Assembly (NCBI GenBank): GCA_963676235.1
Contig: OY781044.1
Coordinates: 558,181-622,180 of the forward strand
Direction of reading: 5' to 3'
Source of the DNA: Candidatus Methanomethylophilaceae archaeon
Lineage (GTDB): Archaea; Thermoplasmatota; Thermoplasmata; Methanomassiliicoccales; Methanomethylophilaceae
DNA length: 64,000 nt
Part shown: one piece after another, positions 10,531-55,202 of the stretch
How the letters are laid out: each line of letters starts with the position of its first letter
Numbering within the stretch: the first letter of the stretch is position 1
Notes under the pieces: model-generated
The model's input: only the letters and a program-made list of their open reading frames with translations
Database searches by the model: none
Told to the model about the DNA's origin: nothing
Made by a program: the position numbers and the translations under genes

Positions 10531-10536
10531 TAACGA

Positions 10537-11322
10537 TCACCCATAATATTTTCTGATCTTCTCAGCCAAGATATCACTAAGACGCGGATCGGAACCGATA
10601 GGCAAAGCGTAAGAGATGATAACATCCCTCCCATCATAATGATACACACCTCTCTTCTCCATCATACTCAAATGCAGTCTGGGGGGGACATCTTCTATCA
10701 AATGTTTTCCTGCTGCGATGAATAAAGGAAGTACGATTATCTGCTTCATACCGTCATCCAACATTTTTTGCATCGTCTCATCGATATCGGGATGATTCAT
10801 CTCGTTGAATCCGATGTATGTATTGTATCCCATCTCTCTGAGGCGGCCTGCATGGAAATTCATGACCTCTGAATTATATGGTAATTTCGAACCGTGACCA
10901 ATTATCATAATACCCAGACTCTGCTTTTCTTCACAGAGTTCGATTATCTTCTCTTTCAGAATGTTCGTAAGAAGAGGGTCGTTTCCAAAGGGCGTCTCAA
11001 AATACAATTTTACATCCTTACCGTTGACCGAGACGACTGATTCTGGAAAATTGGTCTTCAATCCCAATTTTTTAGGAATATCCCTGGTCATATGTAAACC
11101 CGAAGCTATGAAGAACGGAAGACATACGATCTCATTGATACCATCATTTACCATATTCTCCAATATTTCAGATATAGAGGGAATGGATGATTCGTTATAT
11201 CCTATGTAGATATTATCGAATCCCTTCTCTGCAAGAAGTTCGGCCTGTCTATCCATTATCGCTTTGTTGTAAAACATTGTGGATCCGTGACCCATTATCA
11301 TAATTCCTTGCTGTTTATTCAT
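10537..11322 (-). CDS. cfbA: sirohydrochlorin nickelochelatase, internally duplicated CbiX-type
   Basis: Two CbiX halves, each with GHGS and a second His motif (IMGHGS...ASGLH and IIGHGS...AAGKH). The track start is GTG 11331; the ATG at 11322 gives MNKQQGIMIMGHGS. Confidence 0.8.
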   Translation of the reverse strand: MNKQQGIMIMGHGSTMFYNKAIMDRQAELLAEKGFDNIYIGYNESSIPSISEILENMVNDGINEIVCLPFFIASGLHMTRDIPKKLGLKTNFPESVVSVNGKDVKLYFETPFGNDPLLTNILKEKIIELCEEKQSLGIMIIGHGSKLPYNSEVMNFHAGRLREMGYNTYIGFNEMNHPDIDETMQKMLDDGMKQIIVLPLFIAAGKHLIEDVPPRLHLSMMEKRGVYHYDGRDVIISYALPIGSDPRLSDILAEKIRKYYG

Positions 11323-11356
11323 GATTATCACTATTACACATTTTTAAAATACCGGA

Positions 11357-12157
11357 TCATTCACCTTTCATGCCACCGGCATATCCTTTTGTCAAGGAGA
11401 GGATCTTCTTTGCTAATTCACGATAAAGGTCTGCCTGAACAGAATCAGGAGCACCTTCAACGACTGTCATTTTCTTTGATTCACAGGTCTGTACGATCTT
11501 GTCTCTAGGCATACGGAATATCACATCCGTACCGATCTCCTCTGTAGCTGCATCTACTACATCGTTCTCACATTCAATATCTCTTGAATTCTGTATTATG
11601 CCGCCCAATCTGGCATAACCCTTAGAACTCATGTCATTCACAGCTATTGCAATATTGTTTGCAGCATACAGAGCCATCAACTCGCCCGATGTCACGATGA
11701 AAACATCTCTTGTATATCCATGCCTTATGGGCATTGCGAAACCACCGCAGACAACATCACCCAAAACATCATAGATTATAACGTCCGGTTGACATACACG
11801 GATAACATCCTTCGCTTCTAGGGTTTCGAATGCCACTATTATGCCTCTTCCGGCACATCCTGTTCCCGGCCTGGGCCCTCCGCACTCTGCACACATGATG
11901 CCTTTATACCCTTCGTGGATCATGCTTAGAAGCTCTGTGTTGCCTTCTTTTACACAATCAAGAATAGTCTTTATAGGCATATCGTGAAGAAGCATCTTCG
12001 TAGAATCCGCTTTCGGATCGCAACCTATCTGAAGGACCCTGTATCCAAGGTCAGCCAATGCTGCCGAAATATTCGCGGCCGTCGTTGATTTTCCTATTCC
12101 ACCCTTACCATACAAGGCTATCCGGCGTACCGGCTTTGAGAATTCATTACTGCTCAT
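11357..12157 (-). CDS. cfbC: Ni-sirohydrochlorin a,c-diamide reductive cyclase, NifH-like ATPase subunit
   Basis: NifH-type motifs: [42 protein letters not shown]. First gene of the cluster. Confidence 0.85.
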
Positions 12158-12340: not shown

Positions 12341-12952
12341 TTATTGAGCACATTTCTGCCCTACGATTATGAAATAATCCTCGTCATCCTGTGTAAATAA
12401 GATCTCGAGTCCATTATCAACAAACATTTTCTTCATTGTTTCCATACACGGAAGATAATCCTTAGAAATAACCTCTCCTCCGGTCCTGTGAACTTGATTG
12501 ATCTTATCCCTTGAACATGAATGAGATATCATTAGCTTTCCTCCGTATTTCAGCGCCTTACACAATATTGAAACCGCCAAGGACTGATCAGGAAAATGCG
12601 GAAAACAAGAATAACATACTATTGTATCAAAAGCCATAAAAGAATCGATATCATATAGATCTTTGACCTCAAACCAGATCATAGAATGCTCTTTGGATGG
12701 ATACTTCTTCTTGGCAATAGCTACCATATTCTCGGAATAATCCACGGCCAATACACTCCCCGATGTCAAATATTTCTCATAAAAAGGAATCATTATACCT
12801 GTGCCGGTGCCGACATCCATAATACGTTCTTCTCCCTTCAATTTCAATAATGATGTGATGTAGTCAACTCTTTTCAGATCATGCACTGAAATTACATCCC
12901 ATTGTTCAGCATTTTTATTGAAAAATTCTTTCTGCATTGGATTCTTTATCAT
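12341..12952 (-). CDS. class I SAM-dependent methyltransferase
   Basis: Motif I (MDVGTGTG). It starts 4 nt after the ABC ATPase stop, so it is the last gene of the transporter operon. Confidence 0.7.
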   Translation of the reverse strand: MIKNPMQKEFFNKNAEQWDVISVHDLKRVDYITSLLKLKGEERIMDVGTGTGIMIPFYEKYLTSGSVLAVDYSENMVAIAKKKYPSKEHSMIWFEVKDLYDIDSFMAFDTIVCYSCFPHFPDQSLAVSILCKALKYGGKLMISHSCSRDKINQVHRTGGEVISKDYLPCMETMKKMFVDNGLEILFTQDDEDYFIIVGQKCAQ

Positions 12953-12956: not shown

Positions 12957-13721
12957 TCACCGCGTATATGATTTTGGAACTATTATCGGGATTCCGTGTA
13001 TCTCTTCGACATAAGAATCCATATTGTAAACAGCTTTGATATTCTCAGGAGTGATTATTTCTCTGCCTCCGGCAGCATATATCTTTCCTGATTTCATAAG
13101 AATGAATTTATCAGAATGACGAACAGCCAGATTCAGATCGTGTACGACCATCACGGCAGCCATACCGTTATTCTTGACAATTTTCTGAATAAGATGCATC
13201 ATGGCATGCTGATTCGACGGATCCAGATTGCTTGTAGGTTCATCCAATAATATTATCTTGGGTTGCTGAACAAATACCCTGGCTATCTGCACTAATTGAT
13301 ACTCTCCACCACTTATTTCATCTATATATTTCATAGACAGATCATTTAGACCAACAAGATCTATGACCTTACTCGTAATTCTAAGATCCTTTTCTGATGC
13401 ATCTATAGTTATGTGAGGTTTCCTTCCGAGAAGAACCGATTCGAATACGGTCATCCTGGAGACCTCACCTCTCTGCGACACATATCCGATATTCTTAGCA
13501 ACATCATTACGGCTCATACTGTTCAGATCGACCTTATCAAGTTCTACAAGACCGGATTTAGGATGAAGAATATTATCCATGCATTTTAAGAGAGTCGTCT
13601 TTCCAACTCCGTTGGGGCCGAGAAGCGACACTATATCTCCCTCCTCAACCTCAAATGTGATATCCTCGAGAGTGTTCTTGCCTGCATAGGAGAATTTTAC
13701 ACCATTTGCATTGAACATCAT
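12957..13721 (-). CDS. ABC transporter ATP-binding protein (FepC/BtuD-type)
   Basis: Walker A GPNGVGKTT, signature ISGGEYQ, Walker B ILLDEP. Confidence 0.9.
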   Translation of the reverse strand: MMFNANGVKFSYAGKNTLEDITFEVEEGDIVSLLGPNGVGKTTLLKCMDNILHPKSGLVELDKVDLNSMSRNDVAKNIGYVSQRGEVSRMTVFESVLLGRKPHITIDASEKDLRITSKVIDLVGLNDLSMKYIDEISGGEYQLVQIARVFVQQPKIILLDEPTSNLDPSNQHAMMHLIQKIVKNNGMAAVMVVHDLNLAVRHSDKFILMKSGKIYAAGGREIITPENIKAVYNMDSYVEEIHGIPIIVPKSYTR

Positions 13722-13722
13722 T

Positions 13723-14823
13723 TTATCTGTACCTCTTGATCAGAAGATATATGAATAAAGGTCCTCCCAGAAGAGATGTTATTATCCCTACTGGAATGAC
13801 CTCCGGCGCCAAGATCCTCTTTCCCACCAGATCTGCAAATACCAAGATTATAGCACCGATTATCATTGAAGCCGGAATAAGATATCTGTGGTCCCCTCCG
13901 ATTATCATACGTGCTATGTGTGGCCCCAATAACCCTACAAAAGCTATGATTCCAAAAAAAGATACTATGACCGAGCATAATAATGAAGAAAGGATCATTC
14001 CTATTATCCTTTCTCTTTCAGTATTCACTCCCAGACCTTTAGCTGTATCCTCTCCTGCATCCATCGCATTGTATTCCCAACGCCTGAACATGAAGTAAGT
14101 AACTACAACCAGCAATGTTGCAAACACGAAAAGGTCCCACGTCCATGTGCCTCTTCCGAGATCGCCGAAACTCCAAGATACGATGTTGGCCAATTGAGAA
14201 TCGGTCGCAATAAACTGAACAAACGATAAAGCCGCAGAGAAAATAGCACTGATTGCAATTCCTGCCAACACCATGGTCTCTGCTGTGATCTTTGTTATTT
14301 TAGTAAGCAAAAGGATTAGCCCTGTTGCAAGCATACTGAAAAAGAACGCAAAACCTGTTGTTAAAAAAGGATTATCGATCGAGATAGAGGACGTTATCAT
14401 TGATCCTGTACCCACAAAGACGATCGAGAATGCCGCACCGAATGCTGCGGCACTTGAAAGTCCCAGAGTATATGGAGAAGCCAAAGGATTCCTCAATATA
14501 CATTGCATAACCACGCCGGATACTGCAAGACCTGCGCCTATCAGTACAGCTCCAATTATACGAACCAATCTGGCATTCCAAACTATACGACCGAATCCGT
14601 TAGTATCAAATGTAAAAATATATTTTAAAATATCTACAAATGAAATGTGGATGGGTCCAACATATACTGCTACCATGATTGAAACGATCAGTATTACGAT
14701 CGCACCTACCATGAACAGATTCTTATGCCTTACATATCCTTTATATGTCTTGGAAGACGCGGATTCAAGACCCTGATCATAATCATCATAGATCTTGTAC
14801 TTATTATCCATTTCACTACTCAT
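13723..14823 (-). CDS. FecCD/BtuC-family ABC permease
   Basis: Polytopic membrane protein with typical FecCD blocks: RNPLASPYTLGLSSAAAFGA, GIIAFVGLLGPHIAR. The track start is TTG 14826; there is an ATG at 14823. Confidence 0.85.
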   Translation of the reverse strand: MSSEMDNKYKIYDDYDQGLESASSKTYKGYVRHKNLFMVGAIVILIVSIMVAVYVGPIHISFVDILKYIFTFDTNGFGRIVWNARLVRIIGAVLIGAGLAVSGVVMQCILRNPLASPYTLGLSSAAAFGAAFSIVFVGTGSMITSSISIDNPFLTTGFAFFFSMLATGLILLLTKITKITAETMVLAGIAISAIFSAALSFVQFIATDSQLANIVSWSFGDLGRGTWTWDLFVFATLLVVVTYFMFRRWEYNAMDAGEDTAKGLGVNTERERIIGMILSSLLCSVIVSFFGIIAFVGLLGPHIARMIIGGDHRYLIPASMIIGAIILVFADLVGKRILAPEVIPVGIITSLLGGPLFIYLLIKRYR

Positions 14824-14869
14824 CAATTACCTTCCAATTAGTCTTCCAAGACTATTTAACTTTTTCAGA

Positions 14870-15949
14870 TCAAATGGTTACCTGTCCACACCCCCCTCCT
14901 GTCTGCAAGGCCGCCAGATCGTCGTATGTCAGATCGGTCGAATAGAGAAGATCTATTACTTCATTCGCCTTATCATCAAATGCCCAGCTGTAATGGCTTC
15001 CGTTAACAACAGATGCGACATAAAAACAATTGATCAATTGAGCATCCCATTGTGTTCCCCAAACCTTGTAAGTCATGAGCTTGTAAACATCACCATTTAT
15101 GATTGCTGGTTCATTGCCCAATGTACTGGATCCGATATAATCCTTTATCTGACCCGTGGTCGTTGAAACTGAACTTCCATCGATGAATATGTAATCGAAC
15201 GTCGTTGCTACAATGTCTTCGATTGTCGTATTATACGGCTGTCCAGTACCTGACGGATTAGATGGCATTACATTTGTAACACCTGAATATGTGAAAGGCA
15301 AATAATCTCCTGCTCCAGATGTCTTGAGGAAGTTTCCAGCACCGTAGAACATCATTCCACACGCATATGCGCTTACGTCTGAAACACTTTCTGATGTGAT
15401 GTCTCCGATAAGATCCTTGATACCGTTGTTGATCTCTGCTGCTCTGCTCTCTTCTTTGAAAAGTATCCCAAGCTTGGTGATCTGCACAAACCATGCTTCC
15501 GATCCAAATTCAAGATCTGCGTTGATTCCATAGACTGGGACACCATATGTTGTCTGTTCCCGGTTCAAATCCTCTACTGAAACAGTAGATGATATTACAA
15601 CGCTCGGATGTAAAGCTATTATCTCTTCAGCATTACTGACCGTTATAACCTTAAGAGAACTCAAGAACTGGCTATAAACTTGAGTGTAGATCTTGTTCCC
15701 TATTATCGCATCATTGGAATCCCTTGCACATACCTTGTGCATAGCATCGAAATAACTGACAAGTTCCAATGAACAACAATCAATACAGAAAATTGTATCG
15801 ATATCTCCGTCTATAGATATTGTCCTTCCACGAGAATCTACAATATCCCCATTAGAATTATTGCCGTTCAATGCATAGATACCGATACCTACAGCAGCGG
15901 CAGCAATAATCACTACTGCAACAACTGCGAAAATTTTGTTCTTATCCAT
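14870..15949 (-). CDS. membrane-anchored periplasmic-binding-protein-type substrate-binding protein (BtuF/FepB-like)
   Basis: N-terminal TM anchor followed by a Peripla_BP_2-like domain, within the ABC operon. ATG at 15949; the track start is TTG 15952. Confidence 0.7.
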   Translation of the reverse strand: MDKNKIFAVVAVVIIAAAAVGIGIYALNGNNSNGDIVDSRGRTISIDGDIDTIFCIDCCSLELVSYFDAMHKVCARDSNDAIIGNKIYTQVYSQFLSSLKVITVSNAEEIIALHPSVVISSTVSVEDLNREQTTYGVPVYGINADLEFGSEAWFVQITKLGILFKEESRAAEINNGIKDLIGDITSESVSDVSAYACGMMFYGAGNFLKTSGAGDYLPFTYSGVTNVMPSNPSGTGQPYNTTIEDIVATTFDYIFIDGSSVSTTTGQIKDYIGSSTLGNEPAIINGDVYKLMTYKVWGTQWDAQLINCFYVASVVNGSHYSWAFDDKANEVIDLLYSTDLTYDDLAALQTGGGCGQVTI

Positions 15950-15962
15950 CAAATCACCATGA

Positions 15963-16304
15963 TCAGGCAGCGGATTCGACGTTCGAAGTCTTCACTTCGA
16001 CCGAAACATAATGATTATAGATCAATACCATTGCGGCCCAAACTGCTGTGATCGCGAGAAGCATGGGAACACCGATAGTTGCCATTTCGTGAAGCATCGC
16101 AGATGTATCTGCGGAATTCGACATTGCCGTGAGGAAGGGAAACCATGGAACCACTTCTCCATGCCAAATATGTTCAACAAGAAGTGCGAGAACCGCTCCC
16201 CATGCCATTATATTGAACCATTGAATATGATACTTCTCCGGAATTTGTTTTCTGAATACTGTCGTGCATACTGCTGCTGCTGCAGGAACTAAGAAACATG
16301 CCAT
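15963..16304 (-). CDS. small integral membrane protein, unknown function
   Basis: Three or four hydrophobic helices, with His/Trp-rich LVEHIWHGEVVPWFPF. It abuts the upstream gene's stop. Confidence 0.5.
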   Translation of the reverse strand: MACFLVPAAAAVCTTVFRKQIPEKYHIQWFNIMAWGAVLALLVEHIWHGEVVPWFPFLTAMSNSADTSAMLHEMATIGVPMLLAITAVWAAMVLIYNHYVSVEVKTSNVESAA

Positions 16305-16306
16305 TT

Positions 16307-16615
16307 TCAATCAACCTCTGAATTTACATTTACTTTATCTACTGTGCTTACTGCACCCATTTTGAGTTTCTGTATGATAAGATACGCTTCCCATACCGCA
16401 AATATTGGAATCAACATCGCGATGCTTAGAACAAGCGAATCTGCACTTATATCAAAAAAGGCCCCATCCTCATAACCGAGGACGTGATCGACAAAGATAC
16501 AAGTTGTAAGGCCCCAAAGAGCCAATGATAAAATATCGAATCTATAAAACCTGGGCGCTACGAACCAAGCGGCAGTGACCGCCAGGGCTGCCAGTGCGGA
16601 AATTATAAGCCACAT
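16307..16615 (-). CDS. small integral membrane protein, unknown function
   Basis: Three predicted TM helices. First gene of the ABC operon, with an ATG start. Confidence 0.5.
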   Translation of the reverse strand: MWLIISALAALAVTAAWFVAPRFYRFDILSLALWGLTTCIFVDHVLGYEDGAFFDISADSLVLSIAMLIPIFAVWEAYLIIQKLKMGAVSTVDKVNVNSEVD

Positions 16616-17318
16616 TTTGTTTTTCTCCAGTAATACTAATATATTACTTGCACGTCAGTATAACATACTAATTATAAATTATTATGCTATAAATAACATC
16701 TATTTGAAATACATGTAATATTATAAAAAAAATCTTAATCATACCCTTCATTTGTCGTAATCAAACTCTCGTACATCTTATTAAAAATTCTCTTAAAATA
16801 TTCTCAATCCCTTCATTCCACTACCGATAATCTTGTTTAAGAAATATGTGTACTAAAAAATTTCCTTATCTTGAAATAATTCATCTGCATGTAAAAAGAT
16901 TTTTTACATTGTTCTTTGACGATTGAAATGACATTCCTCTACCTTCGCATGATCAGATTCCACCTTGACATCGATAAGAGTTCTGTTCGCTCTGCATGAT
17001 CTTTTACACATCGTTTTACAACCACCAATGATCCGTTTTATTTGATTTTTATAAATCACAAAATAATATAATAAATAAGTTTATATATTAAATTTGCAAC
17101 AAAATGGTTTATTTATATACTATTTTTTCGTACAATTTACAATAATCAACCATAAAAACAGTTAACAGGGGTTTAATATACTTTGTTTAAATACTAAACT
17201 ACCTAAAAAATAGTTATAACATATTTTTTAAACGGATTATACATCCATCCATAAATTTACTATAAATATGTACAACGTAAATGATAATCTGGACCAAAAA
17301 GGCCTATGAGGAAAATAT

Positions 17319-17957
17319 ATGACCAAACAACAAATCCTAGATGAACTGTGTAGTGCAGTAGAAAATTGTAAGGCAGACCTTGCAAAAAATGCTGCAGAAA
17401 AAGCACTGAAAGAAGGAGTTAATCCATTAGACGCCATCAATGATGGACTCGTAAAAGGGATGTCCGTTATCGGAGACAAGTACGCTGCACATACAGTATA
17501 CCTACCTCAAGTACTGGTTGCAGCACATGCAATGTACGCTGGACTTGATATTCTACTTCCAGCAATACCTAGAGAGGACCTGAAAGACAGCAAAACCTGT
17601 ATGACCGCTGTTGTAGAAGGGGATGTCCATGACATCGGAAAGAACATTGTTAAAACAATGATGGTCGCAGGCGGATTCCTTGTTACTGATCTCGGAAAAG
17701 ACATTTCTCCGACAGACATCGCAAAAGCCGTTAAGGATAATAAAACTAACATCGTAGCACTCAGCACACTCATGACTCCCACCATGGATAACATGAAAGC
17801 AACTATTGATGCACTCAAGGAGAACGGATACCGCGGAAACTGTACTATTACCATCGGCGGACCTCCAACGTCGCCGTCCTTTGCAAAAGAGATCGGAGCA
17901 GACCACAGAGACACTAACGCTCAAGACTGCGTCAACTGGCTCAAGGGGGCGAGGTAA
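17319..17957 (+). CDS. methyltransferase cognate corrinoid protein (MtbC/MtsB-size class)
   Basis: B12-binding DxHxxG motif (GDVHDIGKNIV), then LSTLMTPTM and GGPP. GAGG RBS 8 nt upstream. Confidence 0.9.
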   Translation: MTKQQILDELCSAVENCKADLAKNAAEKALKEGVNPLDAINDGLVKGMSVIGDKYAAHTVYLPQVLVAAHAMYAGLDILLPAIPREDLKDSKTCMTAVVEGDVHDIGKNIVKTMMVAGGFLVTDLGKDISPTDIAKAVKDNKTNIVALSTLMTPTMDNMKATIDALKENGYRGNCTITIGGPPTSPSFAKEIGADHRDTNAQDCVNWLKGAR

Positions 17958-19049
17958 ATGAAGACCATGACACCGATGGAAAGAAGCATGGCTGCCCTCA
18001 AAAATGAGAAGGTCGACAGGCTTTCTGCATATCCTATCGCATGCGGTGTCTGTAGAAAACTCATTGGAGACGGACACATCACATATCACGAGTGGGCAAA
18101 CGATCCCAAACTCTTTGCTCAAGCATTCATTGAAGGACAAAAGAAGTTCGGTTTCGATTTTGCCATCGGACTTATGGACCTATCAGTTATGGCTGGAGAT
18201 CTCGGAGCACATGTGAGGATGGACGAGGAAAACACCCCGTTCGTCGATGGGCATATCATTCACAGCATGGAAGACTACGAGAAATTAACTGTACCTGACA
18301 TCAAAAAAGGAAGAACAAATGTCCTCATCGAAGGAACAAAATTAATTGCAGATAATCTCAATGGAACTTGCGTAACATCTGCATTCGTTGAAGGACCACT
18401 ATTGGCACTTTCACAAACAGCTGGTGCAGAAAGACTGTTCATGGATATGTTCACCGATCCCGCTCCGGTGCACAAAGCACTCAAGGTGATGACCGAATAT
18501 GACTCTCAGATCGTAAAGGCGATGGGAGAGACGAAGATCAATGGATTGTGTTGGGATTACCTGTGGGGTAATTATGCATGTCTCGGAGATTCCGAATACG
18601 GAGAATTCGAAGCAAACACCTATGCAAAAAGACTTAACAAAGAAACCATCGAGAATGGAATGGCACTCGCGATCCATAACTGTGCAGATCTTCCTCATCT
18701 CGATACTCAGATCAAGAAGTACAAACCATCGATCTATTCTATGGCCTACTACCCATTGATCGAAGGATCCCCCAGTGCAACAGAGACCATCGAGAAAGGA
18801 TACGCAGACCATTGCCTTATCGCAGGTCAACTCGATCCTCAGTTATTCATCAGAGGAACTGAAGAGAAGATCACTGCTGTAACAAAAGATCTCTGCCATG
18901 AAGTCAAAACTGCATTATGCAAACGCGGACTGAATTCAAGCTACTGTATTGCATCTGGATGTGAAGTTCCACCTGACATAAACTGTAAGCTAGAAAACAT
19001 TACAGCTGTCATGAATGCAGTCGAAAAATATGGAAGAATGGATAACTGA
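17958..19049 (+). CDS. URO-D-family (MtaA/CmuA-like) zinc methyltransferase
   Basis: Uroporphyrinogen-decarboxylase-fold family. Zn ligand pattern H-x-C (AIHNCAD) plus a distal Cys (ASGCEVP). The start abuts the corrinoid gene stop (TAAATG). Confidence 0.8.
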   Translation: MKTMTPMERSMAALKNEKVDRLSAYPIACGVCRKLIGDGHITYHEWANDPKLFAQAFIEGQKKFGFDFAIGLMDLSVMAGDLGAHVRMDEENTPFVDGHIIHSMEDYEKLTVPDIKKGRTNVLIEGTKLIADNLNGTCVTSAFVEGPLLALSQTAGAERLFMDMFTDPAPVHKALKVMTEYDSQIVKAMGETKINGLCWDYLWGNYACLGDSEYGEFEANTYAKRLNKETIENGMALAIHNCADLPHLDTQIKKYKPSIYSMAYYPLIEGSPSATETIEKGYADHCLIAGQLDPQLFIRGTEEKITAVTKDLCHEVKTALCKRGLNSSYCIASGCEVPPDINCKLENITAVMNAVEKYGRMDN

Positions 19050-19068
19050 ACTGAACAGCCATTTACAA

Positions 19069-19143
19069 ACTCCTCCAAATAAATAAACTCTTTACTCCTC
19101 CTAATAAATAAACTCTTTACTCCTCCTAATAAATAAACTCTTT
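19069..19143. repeat. 3 x 25-nt perfect-to-near-perfect tandem repeat (ACTCCTCC[A/T]AATAAATAAACTCTTT)
   Basis: Read directly: units at 19069..19093, 19094..19118 and 19119..19143. Units 2 and 3 are identical; unit 1 differs at one base. Confidence 0.9.
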
Positions 19144-19178
19144 ATAATAAAAATACAAAAATAAATTGAGATGAAAGG

Positions 19179-19493
19179 ATGAATGGACATTACGAAGCAA
19201 TGAGAGCACAAGGATTTGGATACAATACAACAGCATCTGTCAGAAAATTCGCGTGTCCCCGCTGCGGTTTTCAATTCTCACTCGTATATGCGAGAACCTT
19301 TGCATGCCAAGGATGTTCTGAATCAGTAAAAGGATGCCCTAAAATCAGATGTAATAAGTGTGATCTTGAATTCCCTATAGCAGACATGCCAGAGATACAT
19401 GGAAAAGAACAGCAGAAAACAATGGCAGACCACATATGTCAGATTGTATCAGAAAGAAATTCTGATCTTGGTATTATTTCTGCCAAGAGGTGA
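19179..19493 (+). CDS. small Cys-rich (Zn-ribbon or Fe-S) protein
   Basis: Seven Cys within about 36 residues (CPRC...CQGC...C.....C..C). RBS GAAAGGA. Its stop overlaps the next gene's start (GTGA). Confidence 0.6.
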   Translation: MNGHYEAMRAQGFGYNTTASVRKFACPRCGFQFSLVYARTFACQGCSESVKGCPKIRCNKCDLEFPIADMPEIHGKEQQKTMADHICQIVSERNSDLGIISAKR

Positions 19494-21490
19494 AGATTAT
19501 GTTGCTCGGCCTTGGTTTTGATACGGGCGGTACGTACACTGATGCTGTGATCATGAATTTAGAAACAGATCAAATACTGATGAGTTCAAAAGCGCTCACA
19601 ACGCGTTACGATCTCTCGATTGGAATAAAGAACTCCATTAAAAATTTTAACTGCGACGTTTTGAACAAAATCTCTCTCGTATCATTATCATCTACTTTGG
19701 CAACTAATTCAATCGTAGAAGGAAAAGGGTGTAGAGTGGGACTCATATGTATTGGTGAAAAATATGATAACGCCGTAAGCGTAGATGCATACGCTTGCAT
19801 AAAAGGATGTCATGATTTATCCGGAAATGAATCTGAACCGCTAGATATCGATGCCGCTGAAAAATTCTTCAATTCTATAAAAGGAAAGGTTGATGGACTT
19901 GCAATCACCGGATATTTAAGTGTAAGGAATCCAGAACATGAGATCTGCATAAAGAAATTAGCTAACCGCATTCTAAATATACCTGCAGTATGTGGACATG
20001 AACTTTCTTCCGGACTGGGTTTCAACGAACGTACAACAACGTGTATAATGAACGCTCGTCTTATCCCGATCATTAAAGACCTTATAGATTCAGTCAACAA
20101 AGTCCTTTACGACAATAATATCAAAGCACCCCTTATGATCGTGAAGGGAGATGGATCAATAATGGACCAAAAAATGGCGAAGGAAAGACCTGTCGAGACA
20201 ATATTATCTGGTCCAGCCGCAAGTATGATCGGTGCAAGAAAACTCACCGGTCAGGACAATGCGATAGTAATGGATATCGGTGGCACAACTACAGATATCG
20301 GAATATTAAGAAACGGTCGCCCAAGATTAGAAAAAGAAGGAGCATTAATAGGCGAAAAAAGAACTAAAGTCCTTGCAGCAGACATAGCAACCTCCGGAAT
20401 AGGAGGAGATAGCCGTATTGTTGTCAACGGACAGAATATTCTTCTAATGCCTACAAAAGCCATCCCATTATGTGTAGCAGCCAACAAATGGCCTGATCTT
20501 AAGAGACGTCTCGAAAAGATAGCTACAGAAAAAGTACGTCCTACTCCAGAAGCGGTCAAAGAAGAGAATATTATACAGGAAACCGAATTCTTCATAAAAA
20601 TCAAGAATCCTTCATCAGACACACTATCGAGTATGGATCTGAAATTCCTAGATATTATCAAACATGAACCTCTGTCATTATCTGAAGCAGGAGAGAAACT
20701 GAACGTACATCCACTCGCGTTCAATGCATCTAAATTAGAAGGAATGGAACTTATTCAAAGAATAGGTCTCACTCCCACAGATCTTCTGCATGCTGAAGGA
20801 AGCTACTTAATATATGATGCAGAAGCATCAAAACTAGGTATACTCCATCAGGCAACTAAACTCAGGATAGCAACTGAGGAATTCATATTCAAGACGAAGA
20901 AAAAATTCATCGATAAACTGTGCATGGAACTCATGAAGAAGTTGATGTTCGAAGAGACTGGTTTACTTAATATGGATTGCAGCGAAAAGATACTTATTAT
21001 GAAGGCCATCGAACAAACATCTAATACAGAATTTGATTGCATGATCAAATTGAACAAACCAATTATAGGTATTGGAGCGCCTGTCGCAGCATATCTTCCA
21101 GCCGTTGCCAAAAGATTCAATACAAAACTATACATCCCAGAATATTCCGAAGTAGGCAACGCGATAGGTGCACTTACAAGCAGTATAATAGAAAGTATAG
21201 AGGTACTCGTAAAACCTAATCAGACTGGAAATTCTGATGACTCACCCTGTCTAGTGTTCGCAACATTTGGAAAGACTACGACCACTAGTTACGAAGAAGG
21301 TCTTGAATTGGCCAAATTCAAAGGTAAAATGTTCGTGAAAGAACTTGCTGAAAAAGCAGGTGCTGTTGACATCACAGTATCTTATGATGTCAATGAAAAA
21401 AGATATTCCACAGGTGATGATATGAACAATGTTCTGTTGGAAACTATCGTCACTGTGACTGCTGTAGGAAAACCCAAGCAATTCTCATAA
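19490..21490 (+). CDS. hydantoinase/oxoprolinase A-family (ASKHA-fold) ATPase-like protein
   Basis: N-terminal GFDTGGTYTDAV and central DIGGTTTDIG phosphate-binding motifs typical of HyuA. No HyuB partner in the window. The start is either GTG 19490 or ATG 19499. Confidence 0.75.
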   Translation: MKIMLLGLGFDTGGTYTDAVIMNLETDQILMSSKALTTRYDLSIGIKNSIKNFNCDVLNKISLVSLSSTLATNSIVEGKGCRVGLICIGEKYDNAVSVDAYACIKGCHDLSGNESEPLDIDAAEKFFNSIKGKVDGLAITGYLSVRNPEHEICIKKLANRILNIPAVCGHELSSGLGFNERTTTCIMNARLIPIIKDLIDSVNKVLYDNNIKAPLMIVKGDGSIMDQKMAKERPVETILSGPAASMIGARKLTGQDNAIVMDIGGTTTDIGILRNGRPRLEKEGALIGEKRTKVLAADIATSGIGGDSRIVVNGQNILLMPTKAIPLCVAANKWPDLKRRLEKIATEKVRPTPEAVKEENIIQETEFFIKIKNPSSDTLSSMDLKFLDIIKHEPLSLSEAGEKLNVHPLAFNASKLEGMELIQRIGLTPTDLLHAEGSYLIYDAEASKLGILHQATKLRIATEEFIFKTKKKFIDKLCMELMKKLMFEETGLLNMDCSEKILIMKAIEQTSNTEFDCMIKLNKPIIGIGAPVAAYLPAVAKRFNTKLYIPEYSEVGNAIGALTSSIIESIEVLVKPNQTGNSDDSPCLVFATFGKTTTTSYEEGLELAKFKGKMFVKELAEKAGAVDITVSYDVNEKRYSTGDDMNNVLLETIVTVTAVGKPKQFS

Positions 21491-21491
21491 A

Positions 21492-23387
21492 TTAATTTAT
21501 AGAATAATTATCGGGCGGAATAGTTATCTCGAACACCACGCCCTTGCCCGGAGATCCTACTTCTTCCAATGTGAATTCTGTTGCAGCCAGTATACTTCCG
21601 ACCAGGAACATTCCAAACTTTCCGTTCTCTATCCTTCCCTTAACGATATCGTCTTTCGTATCTACAGGCAATCCTATTCCGTTGTCACTATAAACCAGAA
21701 TCAGATTTCCGCGATCTATCCTGTACTTAACAATTATCTCGGAAACATGCCCACCATGCATGATAGAATTCGACAATAAATGATAAAATACGTTGTAAAA
21801 TGTAGGATCTGCCAACACTCTCAAACCATCCGTCCTGATTTTGACGAGTTCTTTCGGTACATTAAAAATATCCATGGCACGTTCTACCACAACATATACA
21901 TCCTGCCATATCGGATCTATCATACCCACATTGTGATAATCGCGTACAAATCCTACAGCTTCATTGATATTATTAAGCTGACAATCAATTTCCAGTTCAG
22001 CTATCCCTCCCACAGAAACCATAGCTTTCTTGATACCTTTCAAAGACCTCAATATCTCTTCAGTCACAAATTCATCGAGAGTGTTGATGTGTTCTACCGC
22101 TTCCCGCATTATAGAATTCGTTTTATTCAATTCAGATACATCATCAAATGTAACGACATAACCTGACTGGTCAGCCCCGATATCCTTCACGGACGACACT
22201 GAAATCATATAATCCTTGCCAGTGACCTGATTTCGAACAGGTGTTAGCGAAACATGCGTATTACCATCTATTATGACGGAATTCACGACTGCTTGAATCT
22301 CTTTTGATATATTATTTTGGAAAAATCTTATTCCTGGCTGATTCGAAGCATCCCCGCACCCTACCAATTTGGATGAAATGCTATTACATAGGATGATGTC
22401 AAGTTTACTGTTCAGAACTAGCATTCCTATCGGTGCACTATCGATAATATTACGAAGTTTATTTTCTGTTGCCAGAGTCTTTCCTTTAAGGATTATCTCA
22501 GCATAAATGCTAAACAATCCGTCCATTAAAAGAGTCAATTGTTTTTCATCTGTCCACGTGTAGTTACGTTTTTTGTTCGCTACACCAGCCGTTGCAACGA
22601 GTACCCCGTCATGATAGATAGGTATCATCAGCAATTTATTCAAAGGCAGATGTCCCATGGGAGTTCCCTTTTTAGGATAGTTTCTTTCAGTATTGTAATC
22701 ATTGATGATCACTGTAGCTCCACGTCGTATGGGCTCTCCCCATAACCCAGTGGTATCGAGATTATACACCATCGGAACATTCTCCACCTTACAGGATTCC
22801 ATGCAAGAATTAGACCATGATAACATATTGAGTTTCCTGTTCTTCGAGTCATATGTAGCGACATATCCAATCTGACTCTCTGTAAGCCTTACACTCTCAC
22901 TCAGTGCATAATCCAAAATATCTTCGAATGACCTTCCATTGAGTTTGGCGAGACGAATTAAAGCTTTCATCCTCTCTTGATTGAGTTCGTTTTCATATTC
23001 CTGCTGTTTCCTTTCGACACAGAATGTTATCTTCTGGGCTAATTCCATGAAAACATTCAGTTTGGTCTTATCACGACTCATGTAATAATCTATTCTTTCT
23101 TCAAAGGCCCTTATAGCGATCTCACCATCTACTTCTTTGGAAACAATTATGTAAGGAAGTTCCACGCGGTTACGACTGAGAAATTCAAAAAGAGCCAGAG
23201 AATCTAATTTTTCATGATCGTGATCACATACTATAACGTCGATGTCCTTTGAATCCGTTACCGCTTTTAAAGCACCGTCCTGGTCATAAGTACAGACGAT
23301 CTTAATATTAGGATTAAGATTCGGGAGGAATGTCCTAGCACTCTCCAAGAACTTTTTATCGATACTTACAATCAGTACGCTGTACAT
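21492..23387 (-). CDS. sensor protein: receiver-like + GAF + PAS + HATPase_c histidine-kinase-like domain
   Basis: N-terminal CheY-like region (DVIVCDHD) and a GAF-like block (SQIGYVATYD...). C-terminal ATPase boxes LLSNSIMHGG, DNGIGLP, GKFGMFLVGS. The track start is TTG 23396; there is an ATG at 23387. Confidence 0.75.
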   Translation of the reverse strand: MYSVLIVSIDKKFLESARTFLPNLNPNIKIVCTYDQDGALKAVTDSKDIDVIVCDHDHEKLDSLALFEFLSRNRVELPYIIVSKEVDGEIAIRAFEERIDYYMSRDKTKLNVFMELAQKITFCVERKQQEYENELNQERMKALIRLAKLNGRSFEDILDYALSESVRLTESQIGYVATYDSKNRKLNMLSWSNSCMESCKVENVPMVYNLDTTGLWGEPIRRGATVIINDYNTERNYPKKGTPMGHLPLNKLLMIPIYHDGVLVATAGVANKKRNYTWTDEKQLTLLMDGLFSIYAEIILKGKTLATENKLRNIIDSAPIGMLVLNSKLDIILCNSISSKLVGCGDASNQPGIRFFQNNISKEIQAVVNSVIIDGNTHVSLTPVRNQVTGKDYMISVSSVKDIGADQSGYVVTFDDVSELNKTNSIMREAVEHINTLDEFVTEEILRSLKGIKKAMVSVGGIAELEIDCQLNNINEAVGFVRDYHNVGMIDPIWQDVYVVVERAMDIFNVPKELVKIRTDGLRVLADPTFYNVFYHLLSNSIMHGGHVSEIIVKYRIDRGNLILVYSDNGIGLPVDTKDDIVKGRIENGKFGMFLVGSILAATEFTLEEVGSPGKGVVFEITIPPDNYSIN

Positions 23388-23543
23388 AAGCTTCAATGTG
23401 TTTTTGTCTTTATATTATGTACGTTATCATTTAATTATCATCATGGCCAAAGTACCAAATCTCATGTTTAGGCCACCATCTTATATATGGTGGTGATTCT
23501 ATATTCTTGTAGACAAATGTTTTACACAATAGGAAGCAAATAC

Positions 23544-26485: not shown

Positions 26486-27634
26486 TTATTTCATATCTGC
26501 AATTTTGGATCTGAGTTTGGACTTTTTTGCAGAAGTTTTCTTACCTGCTTCGCCGTCCAACTTAGCCAAAAGCTCTTTTTCCAATGCAGTTGGCTTTGTC
26601 GGTATATCCATACGCACGCGTGCGTAGAGATTTCCACGGACAGATTGGTTGAGTTTTGGTAATCCTTTTCCAGATATTCTGAGCACTCCGCCGATCTGTG
26701 TTCCTGCAGGAATGCTTACTGATATGGTCTCGCCATCGAGAGTTTTGATGCTTTCCTCGCCTCCGAGTACCAAACGCGAATATGTGGTAGTGACCTCTGA
26801 CCATAGATTGATGCCATCACGCTCGAATGCCTTGTTCTCCTTCACGCTTATTACTACGTAGAGATCTCCTGCGGGACCTCCGTTATATCCTGCATCCCCT
26901 GCACCAGCTACTCTGATGCGAGCTCCATCATCGATTCCCTTGGGGATATTGATGGATATTTTTGACGTTACATTATTACGGCCGGTTCCATGACATTTCT
27001 GACACTTCTCCGTTGCCATACGGCCGGTTCCATGACATCTGGGACAATCTGATACTGACATCATATTGCCGAAAGGTGTACGTGTAACGTTCTGAACTTG
27101 ACCCTGACCGTTACACTGGGTACATCTTTCCACCTTACCGTCCTTTCCACCTGTTCCCTTACAGTCAGGGCATGTTGCAGAATGTGGAACAGATATCTCA
27201 ACGGTTTTGCCGTTGAGTACATCCTCCAACGTTATCTGCATATTATACGCCAGAGACTCACCCGTAGCAGGTGAATTGCTACGGGATCTGCCTTGACGTC
27301 TTCCGCCTCCGAATATGCCTCCGAAGATATCCCCGAAGATATCGTTGATATCATCTCCATGAGTGAAATCATCCCACGAGAATCCACCGTTGCTGAACTG
27401 ACTGTTCACACCGGCATGTCCGTACTTATCGTACGTCTGACGCTTCTCAGCATCAGACAGTACCTCGTAAGCCTCAGATATCTCTTTGAACTTGGCTTCG
27501 GCCACTTCTTTGGATTCAGTAGATACATCCGGATGATACTTCTTAGCAAGCGTGCGATACGCGCTCTTTATCTCATCGGGTGATGCGGTCTTACTGACGC
27601 CCAGGACCTCGTAGTAATCTCTTTGCTCTGGCAT
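26486..27634 (-). CDS. dnaJ: molecular chaperone DnaJ
   Basis: J domain (DYYEVLGV...YHPD), G/F region, and four CxxCxGxG zinc motifs. Confidence 0.95.
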
Positions 27635-27649
27635 ATTTATTACTCGACC

Positions 27650-29509: not shown

Positions 29510-29522
29510 TTCTACTCACCTT

Positions 29523-30056: not shown

Positions 30057-30125
30057 AAGGGGGCCTCTTTCAATTAGATTTTAAAGTAAAGGGGAAGAAG
30101 ATCTCCCCCTTGTTTGGTTTAAGGT

Positions 30126-36525: not shown

Positions 36526-36530
36526 CGGAC

Positions 36531-55201: not shown

Positions 55202-55202
55202 T

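What the first reader, a model, noticed from the sequence alone, without database searches (positions are those of the whole stretch)
17319..21490. MT1-less corrinoid methyltransferase module coupled to a Cys-rich mini-protein and a hydantoinase-like ASKHA ATPase (candidate non-canonical corrinoid activase or substrate-processing step)
Seen in sequence: the cluster starts with a corrinoid protein (DxHxxG) and a 363-aa URO-D-family Zn methyltransferase, start-abutted (TAAATG). After a 130-nt spacer come a 104-aa protein with 7 clustered Cys and a 666-aa HyuA-family protein whose start overlaps the small gene's stop (GTGA). No MtaB/MtmB/MtbB/MttB-type substrate methyltransferase is present. No amber-interrupted ORF is nearby either; the 700-nt upstream region is AT-rich and non-coding. 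Established knowledge: corrinoid proteins need ATP-dependent reductive reactivation by RamA/RACE-type enzymes, which combine Fe-S clusters with an ASKHA-fold ATPase. Hydantoinase A is also ASKHA-fold and normally works with a HyuB partner, which is absent here. Some URO-D-type enzymes (MtsA, MtpA) perform both methyl-transfer half-reactions. Inference, option (a): the Cys-rich protein plus the ASKHA ATPase form a split, non-canonical reductive activase for this corrinoid protein. Inference, option (b): the HyuA-like enzyme opens a cyclic methylated substrate (N-methylhydantoin-like) that feeds the methyltransferase. Either would be undescribed for methanogens.
Basis: partly seen in the sequence, partly recalled or inferred. 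Interest (0 to 1): 0.7.

Follow-up and report, generated by a model that had tools for sequence, protein, structure and literature searches.

The report
Corrinoid methyltransferase module with HyuA-like ATPase
A four-gene cluster conserved in one order of gut and environmental methanogens pairs a vitamin-B12 protein and its methyltransferase with a small cysteine-rich protein and an ATPase of the hydantoinase-A type; relatives of that ATPase sit inside B12 methyltransferase operons across bacteria and archaea, so it is probably an undescribed helper that keeps B12 proteins working.

Summary
At 17319-21490 (+) lie a DxHxxG corrinoid protein, a divergent Zn-type URO-D methyltransferase, a 104-aa protein with 7 invariant Cys, and a 666-aa HyuA-fold ASKHA ATPase. 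The 64-kb window has no MT1, HyuB or RamA.

The four genes are syntenic in Methanomassiliicoccales genomes whose flanks are otherwise unrelated, so they form a real module.

New evidence: the ATPase belongs to a large stand-alone family (over 1000 representatives).
- In 33 of 80 species-level loci it lies beside corrinoid-system genes: corrinoid proteins, MttB, MtaB, URO-D, pterin MT2, RACo/RamA, or a MetH-activation-like domain.
- 70 of 74 such genes share its strand, and their share falls from 24% of ORFs within 500 nt to 5% at 4.5-6 kb.
- Many relatives are N-terminally fused to DUF1638, a domain genetically tied to B12 reactivation.
- No recurrent HyuB partner was found.

Because the family accompanies three unrelated MT1 types, a substrate ring-opening role (option b) is unlikely. 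Because it sits next to RACo/RamA in 7 loci and has no Fe-S motif, it is probably not a simple RamA replacement (option a as written). It is more likely an additional ATP-driven maintenance factor for corrinoid proteins.

The Cys-rich protein is lineage-specific and looks like a double zinc or iron knuckle. Its role, and all biochemistry, remain untested.

The parts
16616..17318 (.). AT-rich non-coding region upstream of the cluster; presumed promoter region, shared with the divergent upstream genes.
   Evidence: GC 0.29-0.33. No ORF of 60 aa or more lies within it. No Rfam family hit.
17319..17957 (+). Corrinoid (B12-binding) protein CoP1, 212 aa, His-on DxHxxG type.
   Evidence: PF02607 and PF02310 both above cut-off. 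TIGR02370 scores 184 bits against a cut-off of 215. DVHDIG motif present in the sequence. 62% identical to the paralogue CoP2 at 54548-55201.
17958..19049 (+). Divergent URO-D-family Zn methyltransferase UROD1, 363 aa, start-abutted to CoP1.
   Evidence: PF01208 E=5e-40. Scores only 83.8 bits against TIGR01463 MtaA/CmuA, cut-off 235.4. His240-x-Cys242 and Cys335 are invariant in the alignment with MtaA-type proteins. Orthologues of 63-99% identity are nearly all from Methanomassiliicoccales. 22% identical to UROD2.
19069..19144 (.). 25-nt x3 tandem repeat (ACTCCTCCTAATAAATAAACTCTTT) inside the 129-nt spacer. It possibly carries TATA-like elements for the downstream gene pair.
   Evidence: TRF: 3.0 copies, 98% matches; sequence. 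It is probably specific to this genome, because the spacers in L001-L003 are only about 40-100 nt.
19179..19493 (+). 104-aa Cys-rich mini-protein with two CxxC knuckle hairpins and a C-terminal helix. Probably a double metal (Zn or Fe) binding protein.
   Evidence: Seven invariant Cys plus nearly invariant His85. No Pfam or NCBIfam family. AF2 pLDDT 76, with hairpins at 23-34 and 55-66 and a helix at 76-96. Foldseek gave only non-significant RING or zinc-ribbon matches. Homologues are confined to Methanomassiliicoccales, plus two distant ones.
19490..21490 (+). HyuA-like stand-alone ASKHA ATPase (HyuAL), 666 aa from GTG 19490; more likely 663 aa from ATG 19499.
   Evidence: Hydant_A_N and Hydantoinase_A above cut-off, but only positions 1-138 of 291 of the latter are matched. 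AF2 pLDDT 85. Best Foldseek matches are N-methylhydantoinase, acetone carboxylase beta, acetophenone carboxylase alpha/gamma and caprolactamase alpha, TM 0.55-0.61. ATP-binding motifs DxGGTxTD (x2) and GGD are family-invariant. For the start codon.

Best explanation
The four genes form one conserved Methanomassiliicoccales module.

CoP1 plus UROD1 is a two-component corrinoid methyltransferase of the MtsB/MtsA or MtpC/MtpA design. There is no separate MT1. A Zn(His-Cys-Cys) URO-D enzyme handles the methyl-Co chemistry with a thiol-type substrate that is still unknown. This part is inferred.

The HyuA-like protein is not a hydantoinase. It is a stand-alone ASKHA ATPase from a large family whose conserved partners are corrinoid proteins and their maintenance factors (DUF1638, RACo/RamA, a MetH-activation-like domain), whatever the methyl donor. 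It most likely spends ATP, possibly through a phosphorylated intermediate as in other HyuA-type enzymes, to keep the corrinoid protein in a working state. That could mean assisting activation of Co(II), or loading, exchanging or re-seating the cofactor. It would act alongside a RamA-type reductase rather than replacing it.

The Cys7 mini-protein is a lineage-specific metal-binding adaptor. It occupies the upstream position that the DUF1638 domain occupies by fusion in bacteria.

Shown: gene content, synteny, fold, motifs, and family-wide gene neighbourhood and fusions. Inferred: every biochemical activity.
For: Synteny:
- CoP, URO-D, small protein and HyuAL appear in the same order in M. intestinalis (L001), L002, L003 and L009, with unrelated flanks.
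- The small gene and HyuAL are separated by 8 nt or less in those loci.

Family size: 1007 representatives at E<1e-30, aligning over the full length.

Fusions: DUF1638 is fused N-terminally to the complete HyuAL body in 10 of 10 long relatives tested (weakly in one, P0326) and in 8 species loci. DUF1638 is needed for split-MetH function and co-distributes with a RamA-like protein (PMC5764234). It is induced together with RamA on N-osmolytes (PMC12478193).

Neighbourhood of 80 species-level loci:
- 33 have corrinoid-system genes within 6 kb, and 27 have one within 500 nt.
- 70 of 74 such genes are on the HyuAL strand.
- Their share of ORFs falls from 24% within 500 nt to 5% at 4.5-6 kb.
- The associated MT1 types are MttB, MtaB and URO-D, so the common denominator is the corrinoid protein.
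- These contexts occur in every clade of the family tree.

Published hints:
- A 668-aa 'Unknown/HydA' protein between MtgB and MtgA is strongly induced on glycine betaine in strain DCMF (PMC9768040). L013 shows the same gene order and the same lengths.
- M. acetivorans MA4395/MA4396 lie next to mtaCB2. A frameshift in MA4396 arose in evolution for faster switching between methanol and TMA.

Other: ATPase motifs are intact. No recurrent HyuB was found among the neighbour clusters present in 3 or more loci that were annotated or read.
Against: - No biochemical or genetic test exists for any family member.
- About 60% of the loci show no corrinoid gene within 6 kb. Examples are Rhizobium (hslVU, malate synthase), the Methanomassiliicoccales paralogues L005, L006 and L010, and several Methanosarcina loci. 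The family may therefore be functionally heterogeneous.
- HyuA-type enzymes normally phosphorylate small molecules, not proteins or cofactors.
- The glycine betaine system of D. hafniense is, to my knowledge, active in vitro without such a protein, so any role is accessory.
- The distant small-protein homologue (P0194) sits next to another CoP + URO-D pair with no adjacent HyuAL. The mini-protein may therefore serve the methyltransferase rather than the ATPase.
- Whether this genome has a RamA could not be checked.
Confidence: 0.5

Rival explanations
1. First reader's option (a), taken literally. The Cys-rich mini-protein carries an Fe-S or Fe(Cys)4 redox centre. Together with the HyuA-like ATPase it forms a split, non-canonical reductive activase that replaces RamA for this corrinoid protein, coupling ATP hydrolysis to Co(II)->Co(I) reduction.
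For: - The architecture is analogous to RACo/RamA: a metal-Cys module plus an ASKHA ATPase.
- The mini-protein has 7 invariant Cys, including a rubredoxin-like CPxCG knuckle.
- It is tightly coupled to the HyuAL start.
- No RACo/RamA lies in the window or within 10 kb of L001-L003.
- DUF1638, the bacterial fusion partner, also has an invariant Cys3-His set.
Against: - HyuAL sits beside canonical RACo/RamA in L023, L025, L032, L049, L059, L060 and L083. Redundancy is therefore unlikely at family level.
- The mini-protein has no ferredoxin-type CX2CX2CX3C motif, and its best (non-significant) structural matches are zinc RING or ribbon folds.
- It is absent from every other lineage that has HyuAL.
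- It is unrelated to DUF1638 (hhalign probability 0.4%).
- HyuAL itself has only one widely conserved Cys.
Confidence: 0.15
2. First reader's option (b), or a variant of it. HyuAL is a catabolic enzyme that uses ATP to activate or open a small-molecule methyl donor (N-methylhydantoin-like, lactam or ketone), whose product feeds UROD1/CoP1.
For: - The fold and motifs are those of HyuA-type subunits, which phosphorylate lactams or ketones.
- One relative (L011, Desulfosporosinus) lies next to a creatinase/prolidase-type M24 peptidase.
Against: - No HyuB-type partner is present in the window, and none recurs among the neighbour families of the loci.
- A crude HyuB motif search was also negative.
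- The family is linked to MttB (quaternary amines), MtaB (methanol) and URO-D systems, which share no substrate.
- It is fused to DUF1638 and adjacent to RACo and a MetH-activation-like domain, which are cofactor-maintenance functions rather than substrate functions.
- Only the first half of the Hydantoinase_A profile is matched.
Confidence: 0.08
3. The linkage is not mechanistic. The mini-protein is a zinc-ribbon regulator or adaptor of the methyltransferase pair. HyuAL has an unrelated or only loosely related metabolic or regulatory role, such as ATP-dependent control of methylotrophy gene expression through its predicted winged-helix-like insert. It is simply co-regulated with corrinoid genes.
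For: - About 60% of family loci lack corrinoid neighbours.
- The mini-protein homologue P0194 occurs with CoP + URO-D without an adjacent HyuAL.
- The 129-nt spacer, with its repeats and a TATA-like sequence, suggests a separate transcription unit for the small gene plus HyuAL.
- The MA4396 frameshift appeared in a screen that otherwise hit regulators.
- A conserved sensor kinase lies convergent to the cluster here and in L009.
Against: - Gene fusion with DUF1638 and same-strand adjacency in 27 loci across phyla are hard to explain by co-regulation alone.
- Four-gene synteny is retained despite complete turnover of the flanks.
Confidence: 0.2

Closest known systems
RamA / RACo (RACE) reductive activators of corrinoid enzymes (COG3894; Pfam RACo_C_ter PF14574 plus an Fe-S domain)
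   Same: An ASKHA-fold ATPase genetically associated with corrinoid methyltransferase proteins. The presumed role is ATP-dependent maintenance of the cofactor.
   Different: HyuAL belongs to a different ASKHA subfamily (Hydant_A_N/Hydantoinase_A, with no PF14574 hit) and has no Fe-S domain. It co-occurs with RACo in the same operons in 7 loci, so it is probably not an equivalent.
HyuA-type subunits: N-methylhydantoinase A, 5-oxoprolinase, caprolactamase CapA, acetone carboxylase beta, acetophenone carboxylase alpha/gamma
   Same: The same overall fold over the full length (TM 0.55-0.61), the same N-terminal Pfam domains and the same ATP-binding motifs.
   Different: - 14-17% identity in the structural alignments.
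- Only half of the Hydantoinase_A profile is matched.
- No HyuB partner.
- The gene context is corrinoid methyl transfer, not lactam or ketone catabolism.
MtsA/MtsB (methylthiol:CoM) and MtpA/MtpC of Methanosarcina
   Same: A corrinoid protein next to a URO-D-family Zn methyltransferase, with no separate MT1. The His-x-Cys...Cys zinc motif is conserved.
   Different: UROD1 is far below the MtaA/CmuA family cut-off (84 vs 235 bits) and only 22% identical to the MtaA-like UROD2 in the same window. UROD2/CoP2 is the better candidate for the 'MtsAB homologue' described in the literature. M. intestinalis, reported to lack mtsAB, still has this cluster.
DUF1638 plus RamA-like proteins required for split methionine synthase / MtgBCD in Alphaproteobacteria (Price et al. 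2018; PNAS 2025)
   Same: Accessory proteins of unknown mechanism tied to B12 reactivation. DUF1638 is fused to the HyuAL body in many bacteria.
   Different: The window has no DUF1638. The Cys7 mini-protein occupies the equivalent upstream position but is not homologous to it.
GlmL/MutL, EutA and DdrA/GdrA-type ASKHA reactivases or accessory proteins of adenosylcobalamin enzymes
   Same: ASKHA ATPases that service B12 enzymes. HyuAL gives weak MutL/GlmL hits at the two phosphate-binding motifs.
   Different: The hits are below the family cut-offs. Those proteins act on AdoCbl mutases, lyases or dehydratases, not on methyl-transfer corrinoid proteins.
MAP, the methyltransferase activation protein of M. 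barkeri (Daas et al. 1996)
   Same: An ATP-dependent activator of a corrinoid methanol methyltransferase that autophosphorylates (FEMS review). From my own recollection it has no chromophore. That matches what an Fe-S-free HyuA-type ATPase encoded next to mtaCB would look like.
   Different: The subunit sizes, recalled from memory as about 60 + 30 kDa, do not match about 72 kDa. To my knowledge the MAP gene has never been cloned, and genome papers label a gene 'MAP' without saying what it is. Resemblance only.
Archaeal C(P)XCG zinc-finger micro-proteins (e.g. DUF1610 protein, PDB 6ydh)
   Same: A small archaeal protein with CPxCG-type knuckles. There is a weak phmmer match, E=0.14.
   Different: The match is not significant. 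The invariant 7-Cys pattern and the long C-terminal helix are specific to this family.

Membership tests
RamA/RACo (RACE) reductive activases | C-terminal ASKHA domain of the RACo type (Pfam PF14574) with the RACo middle region | tested here: not met
   Pfam and NCBIfam scans of the 666-aa protein give Hydant_A_N/Hydantoinase_A only. Genuine RACo proteins in L023 and other loci do hit PF14574 and PF17651.
RamA/RACo (RACE) reductive activases | Fe-S cluster domain ([2Fe-2S] or 2x[4Fe-4S]) for electron input | tested here: not met
   HyuAL has no Fer2/Fer4 hit, and only Cys168 is conserved family-wide. The separate mini-protein has 7 Cys but no ferredoxin motif or family hit. Its metal content is unknown.
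RamA/RACo (RACE) reductive activases | ATP-dependent reduction of Co(II) to Co(I) on a corrinoid protein | not testable with these tools
   Needs in vitro assay.
Hydantoinase A / oxoprolinase (HyuA) family | Hydant_A_N and Hydantoinase_A domains above the Pfam gathering score | tested here: met
   93.4 and 107.9 bits against cut-offs of 25.2 and 22.9. Only positions 1-138 of 291 of Hydantoinase_A are covered.
Hydantoinase A / oxoprolinase (HyuA) family | Full-length HyuA fold | tested here: met
   Foldseek E 1e-18 to 1e-24 and TM 0.55-0.61 to NMHase, acetone carboxylase beta, Apc alpha/gamma and caprolactamase alpha.
Hydantoinase A / oxoprolinase (HyuA) family | Works with a HyuB-type partner subunit, encoded adjacent or fused | tested here: not met
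   No Hydantoinase_B among the window ORFs of at least 400 aa. None was found among the neighbour clusters present in 3 or more of 83 loci that were annotated or read. A motif search was negative. Genome-wide absence was not tested.
MtaA/CmuA methylcobamide:CoM methyltransferases (TIGR01463) | Score above the NCBIfam cut-off | tested here: not met
   UROD1 scores 83.8 bits against a cut-off of 235.4. UROD2 in the same window scores 248 bits and passes.
MtaA/CmuA methylcobamide:CoM methyltransferases (TIGR01463) | URO-D TIM-barrel with His-x-Cys ... Cys zinc ligands | tested here: met
   PF01208 scores 138 bits. H240, C242 and C335 are invariant in the alignment with MtaA-type sequences.
MtsA/MtsB-type two-component (MT1-less) systems | Corrinoid protein adjacent to a URO-D methyltransferase with no separate substrate methyltransferase | tested here: met
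   no MT1 in the window.
MtsA/MtsB-type two-component (MT1-less) systems | The URO-D enzyme catalyses both half-reactions (substrate->Co and Co->CoM) | not testable with these tools
   Requires enzymology; the substrate is unknown.
Methyltransferase cognate corrinoid proteins (TIGR02370) | B12-binding cap plus Rossmann domain with DxHxxG | tested here: met
   Both Pfam domains are above cut-off and the DVHDIG motif is present. TIGR02370 scores 184 bits, slightly below its 215 cut-off.
GlmL/MutL accessory proteins of glutamate mutase | Score above the family cut-off over the full length | tested here: not met
   Pfam MutL scores 30.6 bits, nominally above its 27-bit cut-off, but with no individually significant stretch; NCBIfam GlmL scores 28.4 bits against a cut-off of 475. 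Only the phosphate-binding motifs are matched.
DUF1638 (PF07796) | Homology of the mini-protein to the DUF1638 domain that is fused to HyuAL elsewhere | tested here: not met
   hhalign probability 0.4%; no Pfam hit.

The most novel reading that the evidence does not exclude
The stand-alone HyuA-like ATPase, paired with DUF1638 in bacteria and with the Cys7 mini-protein in Methanomassiliicoccales, would be a second, previously unrecognised and widespread ATP-dependent system for activating, repairing or loading corrinoid methyltransferase proteins. It would operate beside RamA/RACo in methanogens, acetogens and marine and soil glycine-betaine demethylators. It could also be the Fe-S-free, autophosphorylating 'methyltransferase activation protein' (MAP) purified from M. 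barkeri in 1996, whose gene, to my knowledge, was never identified.
Probability: 0.3. Interest if true: 0.85.

Novelty: new variant of a known kind. Interest (0 to 1): 0.66.

Why it matters
Corrinoid methyltransferases drive several processes:
- methylotrophic methanogenesis, including removal of trimethylamine in the human gut by Methanomassiliicoccales;
- acetogenic demethylation;
- marine glycine-betaine turnover.

Their cofactor inactivates readily. Only one class of activator, RamA/RACo, is known, and DUF1638 remains unexplained.

If this HyuA-like family is a further ATP-dependent maintenance factor, three things follow:
- a large, mis-annotated 'hydantoinase/oxoprolinase' family gets a function;
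- the role of DUF1638 is explained;
- in vitro reconstitution and engineering of methyl-transfer pathways could improve.

The family would also give a concrete candidate for the old MAP activity. The conserved CoP1/UROD1 pair points as well to an unidentified methyl substrate or acceptor used by most Methanomassiliicoccales.

Tried and rejected
- Mini-protein as a remnant of DUF1638: hhalign probability 0.4%. Rejected.
- Analogous small Cys-rich ORFs next to HyuAL in other lineages: only spurious ORFs were found. A DGC-domain protein lies downstream in L008 and L015.
- HyuB partner: the neighbour clusters that were annotated, and a C-terminal motif recalled from memory, both gave nothing. The motif test is weak.
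- Riboswitch or other RNA in the upstream region or the spacer: Rfam found only tRNAs.
- Sigma-70 promoter and terminator scan: counts equal to the shuffled control, and not applicable to an archaeon.
- Look-up of the exact window protein (P0001) to reach the 1.66-Mb contig: not on record. The presence of ramA or hyuB elsewhere in this genome therefore could not be checked.
- Literature searches for hydantoinase with corrinoid, MttB or Methanomassiliicoccales terms: only passing labels, no functional study. Searches for ramA in Methanomassiliicoccales gave no usable statement.
- PDB sequence and fold searches for the mini-protein: nothing significant.
- GlmL/MutL membership: only motif-level hits.
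- A complex prediction (AlphaFold-multimer) was not possible with the tools.

Full report
**1. What is in the sequence**

ORF listing and family scans confirm four co-directional genes.
- CoP1, 17319-17957, 212 aa. It has B12-binding_2 plus B12-binding domains and a DVHDIG motif.
- UROD1, 17958-19049, 363 aa. It matches Pfam URO-D (E=5e-40) but scores only 83.8 bits against the MtaA/CmuA model, whose cut-off is 235.4.
- A 104-aa protein, 19179-19493, with no family hit.
- A 666-aa protein, 19490-21490, with Hydant_A_N and the first half of Hydantoinase_A, plus weak MutL/GlmL hits at the phosphate-binding motifs.

The TAAATG junction and the GTGA overlap are in the sequence. However, the identical database protein is 663 aa and homologues align from residue 4. 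ATG 19499, 5 nt after the small gene's stop, is therefore the likelier start.

The 129-nt spacer contains a 25-nt x3 tandem repeat. The 703-nt upstream region is AT-rich and has no ORF of 60 aa or more lying within it and no Rfam hit.

The window comes from a methanogen of the Methanomassiliicoccales type.
- Best hits for all four proteins come from that order.
- A cfbABCDE-like F430 biosynthesis cluster and a FecCD-type ABC transporter lie just upstream.

No MT1 (MttB, MtaB, MtmB, MtbB), no RACo/RamA and no HyuB occurs among the window ORFs of at least 400 aa.

A second pair lies at 54548-56231. CoP2 is 62% identical to CoP1. UROD2 is only 22% identical to UROD1 but passes the MtaA/CmuA cut-offs. 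That second pair is the better candidate for the 'MtsAB homologues' reported for this order. M. intestinalis, reported to lack mtsAB, nevertheless carries the four-gene cluster.

**2. It is a conserved module**

The order CoP, URO-D, small protein, HyuA-like recurs in M. intestinalis (L001), a 1.59-Mb genome (L002), a fermentation-metagenome contig (L003) and L009. The flanks are completely different in each. The small gene ends 8 nt or less before the HyuA-like start in each.

In Methanomassiliicoccus-type loci (L007, L008, L015) the same genes stay together but are rearranged, in some cases with a second, tandem HyuA-like paralogue.

UROD1 orthologues are 63-99% identical and nearly all come from the order. 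The mini-protein has 76 homologues with 7 invariant Cys and a nearly invariant His85.

Two distant mini-protein homologues (38-41% identity) lie next to another divergent URO-D + corrinoid pair, with no HyuA-like gene adjacent on those short contigs. The mini-protein is therefore linked at least as tightly to the methyltransferase pair as to the ATPase.

**3. The individual proteins**

UROD1 keeps the His-x-Cys...Cys zinc ligands of MtaA-type enzymes (H240, C242, C335). It has insertions and forms its own clade.

The HyuA-like protein (HyuAL) models well (pLDDT 85). Over its full length it resembles N-methylhydantoinase, acetone carboxylase beta, acetophenone carboxylase alpha/gamma and caprolactamase alpha (TM 0.55-0.61; sequence hits). 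It does not resemble RACo. Its two DxGGTxTD motifs and its GGD motif are invariant across the family, so it should bind and hydrolyse ATP. Only one Cys is widely conserved, so it has no Fe-S site of its own.

The mini-protein models as two knuckle hairpins plus a long helix (pLDDT 76). It has no significant structural or sequence neighbour; the best matches are RING or zinc-ribbon folds. Whether it binds Zn or Fe cannot be decided from sequence.

**4. The family-wide picture (the key new evidence)**

An exhaustive profile-free search finds 1007 representatives at E<1e-30. Most are full-length, about 650-690 aa.

A subset of 915-960 aa carries an N-terminal DUF1638 domain fused to the complete HyuAL body; all 10 long relatives tested carried it, though the 859-aa P0326 matched only part of the domain (E=7e-5, below the Pfam cut-off). 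DUF1638 has been tied to B12 function in two studies.
- In Phaeobacter it is required for split methionine synthase and is co-distributed with a RamA-like protein (PMC5764234).
- In Ruegeria it is induced together with RamA on N-osmolytes (PMC12478193).

DUF1638 has an invariant Cys3-His set.

A scan of one genome per species returned 80 loci from Methanomassiliicoccales, Methanosarcinales, Firmicutes, Anaerolineae, and Delta-, Gamma- and Alphaproteobacteria. I clustered the neighbouring ORFs and annotated representatives of the recurrent clusters.
- The commonest neighbours are corrinoid proteins, MttB-family methyltransferases, DUF1638, pterin-binding MT2, RACo/RamA and URO-D enzymes.
- Also present are MtaB, a MetH-activation-domain-like protein, a 596-aa B12-binding protein and BCCT transporters.
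- 33 of 80 loci have at least one such gene within 6 kb, and 27 have one within 500 nt.
- 70 of 74 such genes are on the HyuAL strand.
- Their share of ORFs decays from 24% (0-500 nt) to 5% (4.5-6 kb).
- These contexts occur in all clades of an NJ tree of the family.
- No neighbour cluster found in 3 or more loci that was annotated or read is a HyuB.

The recurring order MttB, CoP, MttB, HyuAL, MT2 (L012-L014, L027, L030) matches the glycine-betaine cluster of strain DCMF. There, a 668-aa 'Unknown/HydA' protein is strongly induced on glycine betaine (PMC9768040).

Methanosarcina carries tandem copies, and so do at least one Methanolobus (L038) and one Methanohalophilus (L042) locus. In M. acetivorans these are MA4395/MA4396, downstream of mtsF and mtaCB2. 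A frameshift in MA4396 arose in a laboratory-evolution line selected for faster switching between methanol and TMA. No paper in the searchable library assigns a function.

**5. Interpretation**

HyuAL accompanies three unrelated MT1 classes with different substrates and has no recurrent HyuB partner. A substrate ring-opening role (option b) is therefore unlikely. The shared element is the corrinoid protein.

HyuAL lies directly beside canonical RACo/RamA in seven loci (L023, L025, L032, L049, L059, L060, L083) and has no Fe-S motif. It is therefore unlikely to be merely an alternative RamA (option a as written).

The best-supported reading is an additional ATP-driven maintenance factor for corrinoid proteins. 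It could assist activation, or load or exchange the cofactor. The nearest analogies are the ASKHA reactivases of adenosylcobalamin enzymes and RACo, and a HyuA-style phosphoryl-transfer mechanism is possible. DUF1638 in bacteria, or the Cys7 mini-protein in Methanomassiliicoccales, would be the metal-binding partner.

CoP1/UROD1 is then an MT1-less, MtsAB-like methyl-transfer pair of unknown substrate. Its universality in the order suggests a core rather than a niche function.

All biochemical steps are inferred.

Caveats:
- Roughly 60% of family loci show no corrinoid gene nearby, for example the Rhizobium loci and the paralogues L005, L006 and L010.
- My ORF calling in high-GC contigs is crude.
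- The presence of ramA elsewhere in this genome could not be checked.

**6. Novelty and score**

The four genes are annotated in databases only as 'corrinoid protein', 'uroporphyrinogen decarboxylase family', 'hypothetical' and 'hydantoinase/oxoprolinase family'.

The link between this HyuA-like clade and corrinoid methyltransferase systems, and its fusion to DUF1638, appears undescribed. I rate it a new variant of a known kind: ASKHA ATPases that service B12 enzymes.

A speculative extension is that this family is the Fe-S-free, autophosphorylating MAP activity of M. barkeri (the sizes, recalled from memory, do not fit well).

Interest is 0.66. The comparative evidence is solid and directly testable, but no mechanism has been demonstrated.

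Noticed in passing
window 54548-55201 and 55203-56231 (+): A second corrinoid protein + URO-D methyltransferase pair. CoP2 is 62% identical to CoP1. UROD2 is only 22% identical to UROD1 but passes the MtaA/CmuA cut-offs. It is probably the 'MtsB/MtsA homologue' of the literature, and it has no mini-protein or HyuA-like partner.
   Followed up: partly
window 19069-19144: A near-perfect 25-nt x3 tandem repeat (ACTCCTCCTAATAAATAAACTCTTT) in the spacer between UROD1 and the mini-protein gene. The spacers in related loci L001-L003 are only about 40-100 nt, so the repeat is probably specific to this genome. It may duplicate a TATA-like element.
   Followed up: partly
window 6912-12157 (-): A cfbB/cfbD/cfbE/cfbA/cfbC-like gene set: CobB-type amidase, nitrogenase-like component 1, Mur-ligase-like protein, CbiX chelatase and NifH-like protein. 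This is a coenzyme F430 biosynthesis cluster. It is followed by a SAM methyltransferase (12341-12952).
   Followed up: no
window 12957-16615 (-): An ABC ATPase, a FecCD permease and a periplasmic binding protein (a BtuCDF-like metal or corrinoid uptake system), plus two small membrane ORFs (15963-16615) with no family. These are transcribed divergently from the corrinoid cluster across the AT-rich region.
   Followed up: no
window 21492-23396 (-); L009 9987-11891 (-): A hybrid receiver-GAF-PAS-histidine kinase lies convergent to the HyuA-like gene. It is conserved at the same position in L009 (38% identity, full length) but not in L001-L003. It is a possible cluster-associated sensor.
   Followed up: partly
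window 19490-21490, residues about 375-426 of the 666-aa protein: The AF2 secondary structure (H381-389, H397-404, H413-418, E422-426) looks like an inserted winged-helix-like unit inside the HyuA-like body. This was not verified by a domain-level fold search.
   Followed up: no
L008 10021-10731 and L015 10192-10728: A Cys-rich DGC-domain protein lies directly downstream of the tandem HyuA-like genes in two Methanomassiliicoccus-type loci. This is another small metal-binding candidate partner.
   Followed up: no
P0225, P0253, P0268 and other fused relatives; L017, L027, L030, L056: The DUF1638 domain, whether fused to HyuA-like proteins or encoded next to them, has invariant Cys8, His36, Cys68, Asp89 and Cys90 (P0225 numbering). 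This suggests a metal or Fe-S site in a domain of unknown function.
   Followed up: partly
L084-L086: A distant homologue of the Cys7 mini-protein (38-41% identity) lies convergent to another divergent URO-D (381 aa, HWC...GCE zinc motif) + corrinoid protein pair in an unidentified archaeal lineage. No HyuA-like gene is present on those short contigs.
   Followed up: partly
L007 (contig labelled Bifidobacteriaceae bacterium): This contig carries the Methanomassiliicoccales-type corrinoid / URO-D / mini-protein / HyuA-like genes at 48-78% identity. It is probably a mis-binned archaeal contig.
   Followed up: no
window 1499-4205: A 502-aa MutH-domain protein lies convergent with, and overlaps by 17 nt, a C-5 cytosine DNA methylase. 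This is probably a restriction-modification or very-short-patch-type pair.
   Followed up: no
window 26486-31766 (-) and 32080-38714 (-): A DnaJ-DnaK-GrpE operon next to a thermosome subunit, followed by a large glutamate synthase (1497 aa) and a type III glutamine synthetase.
   Followed up: no
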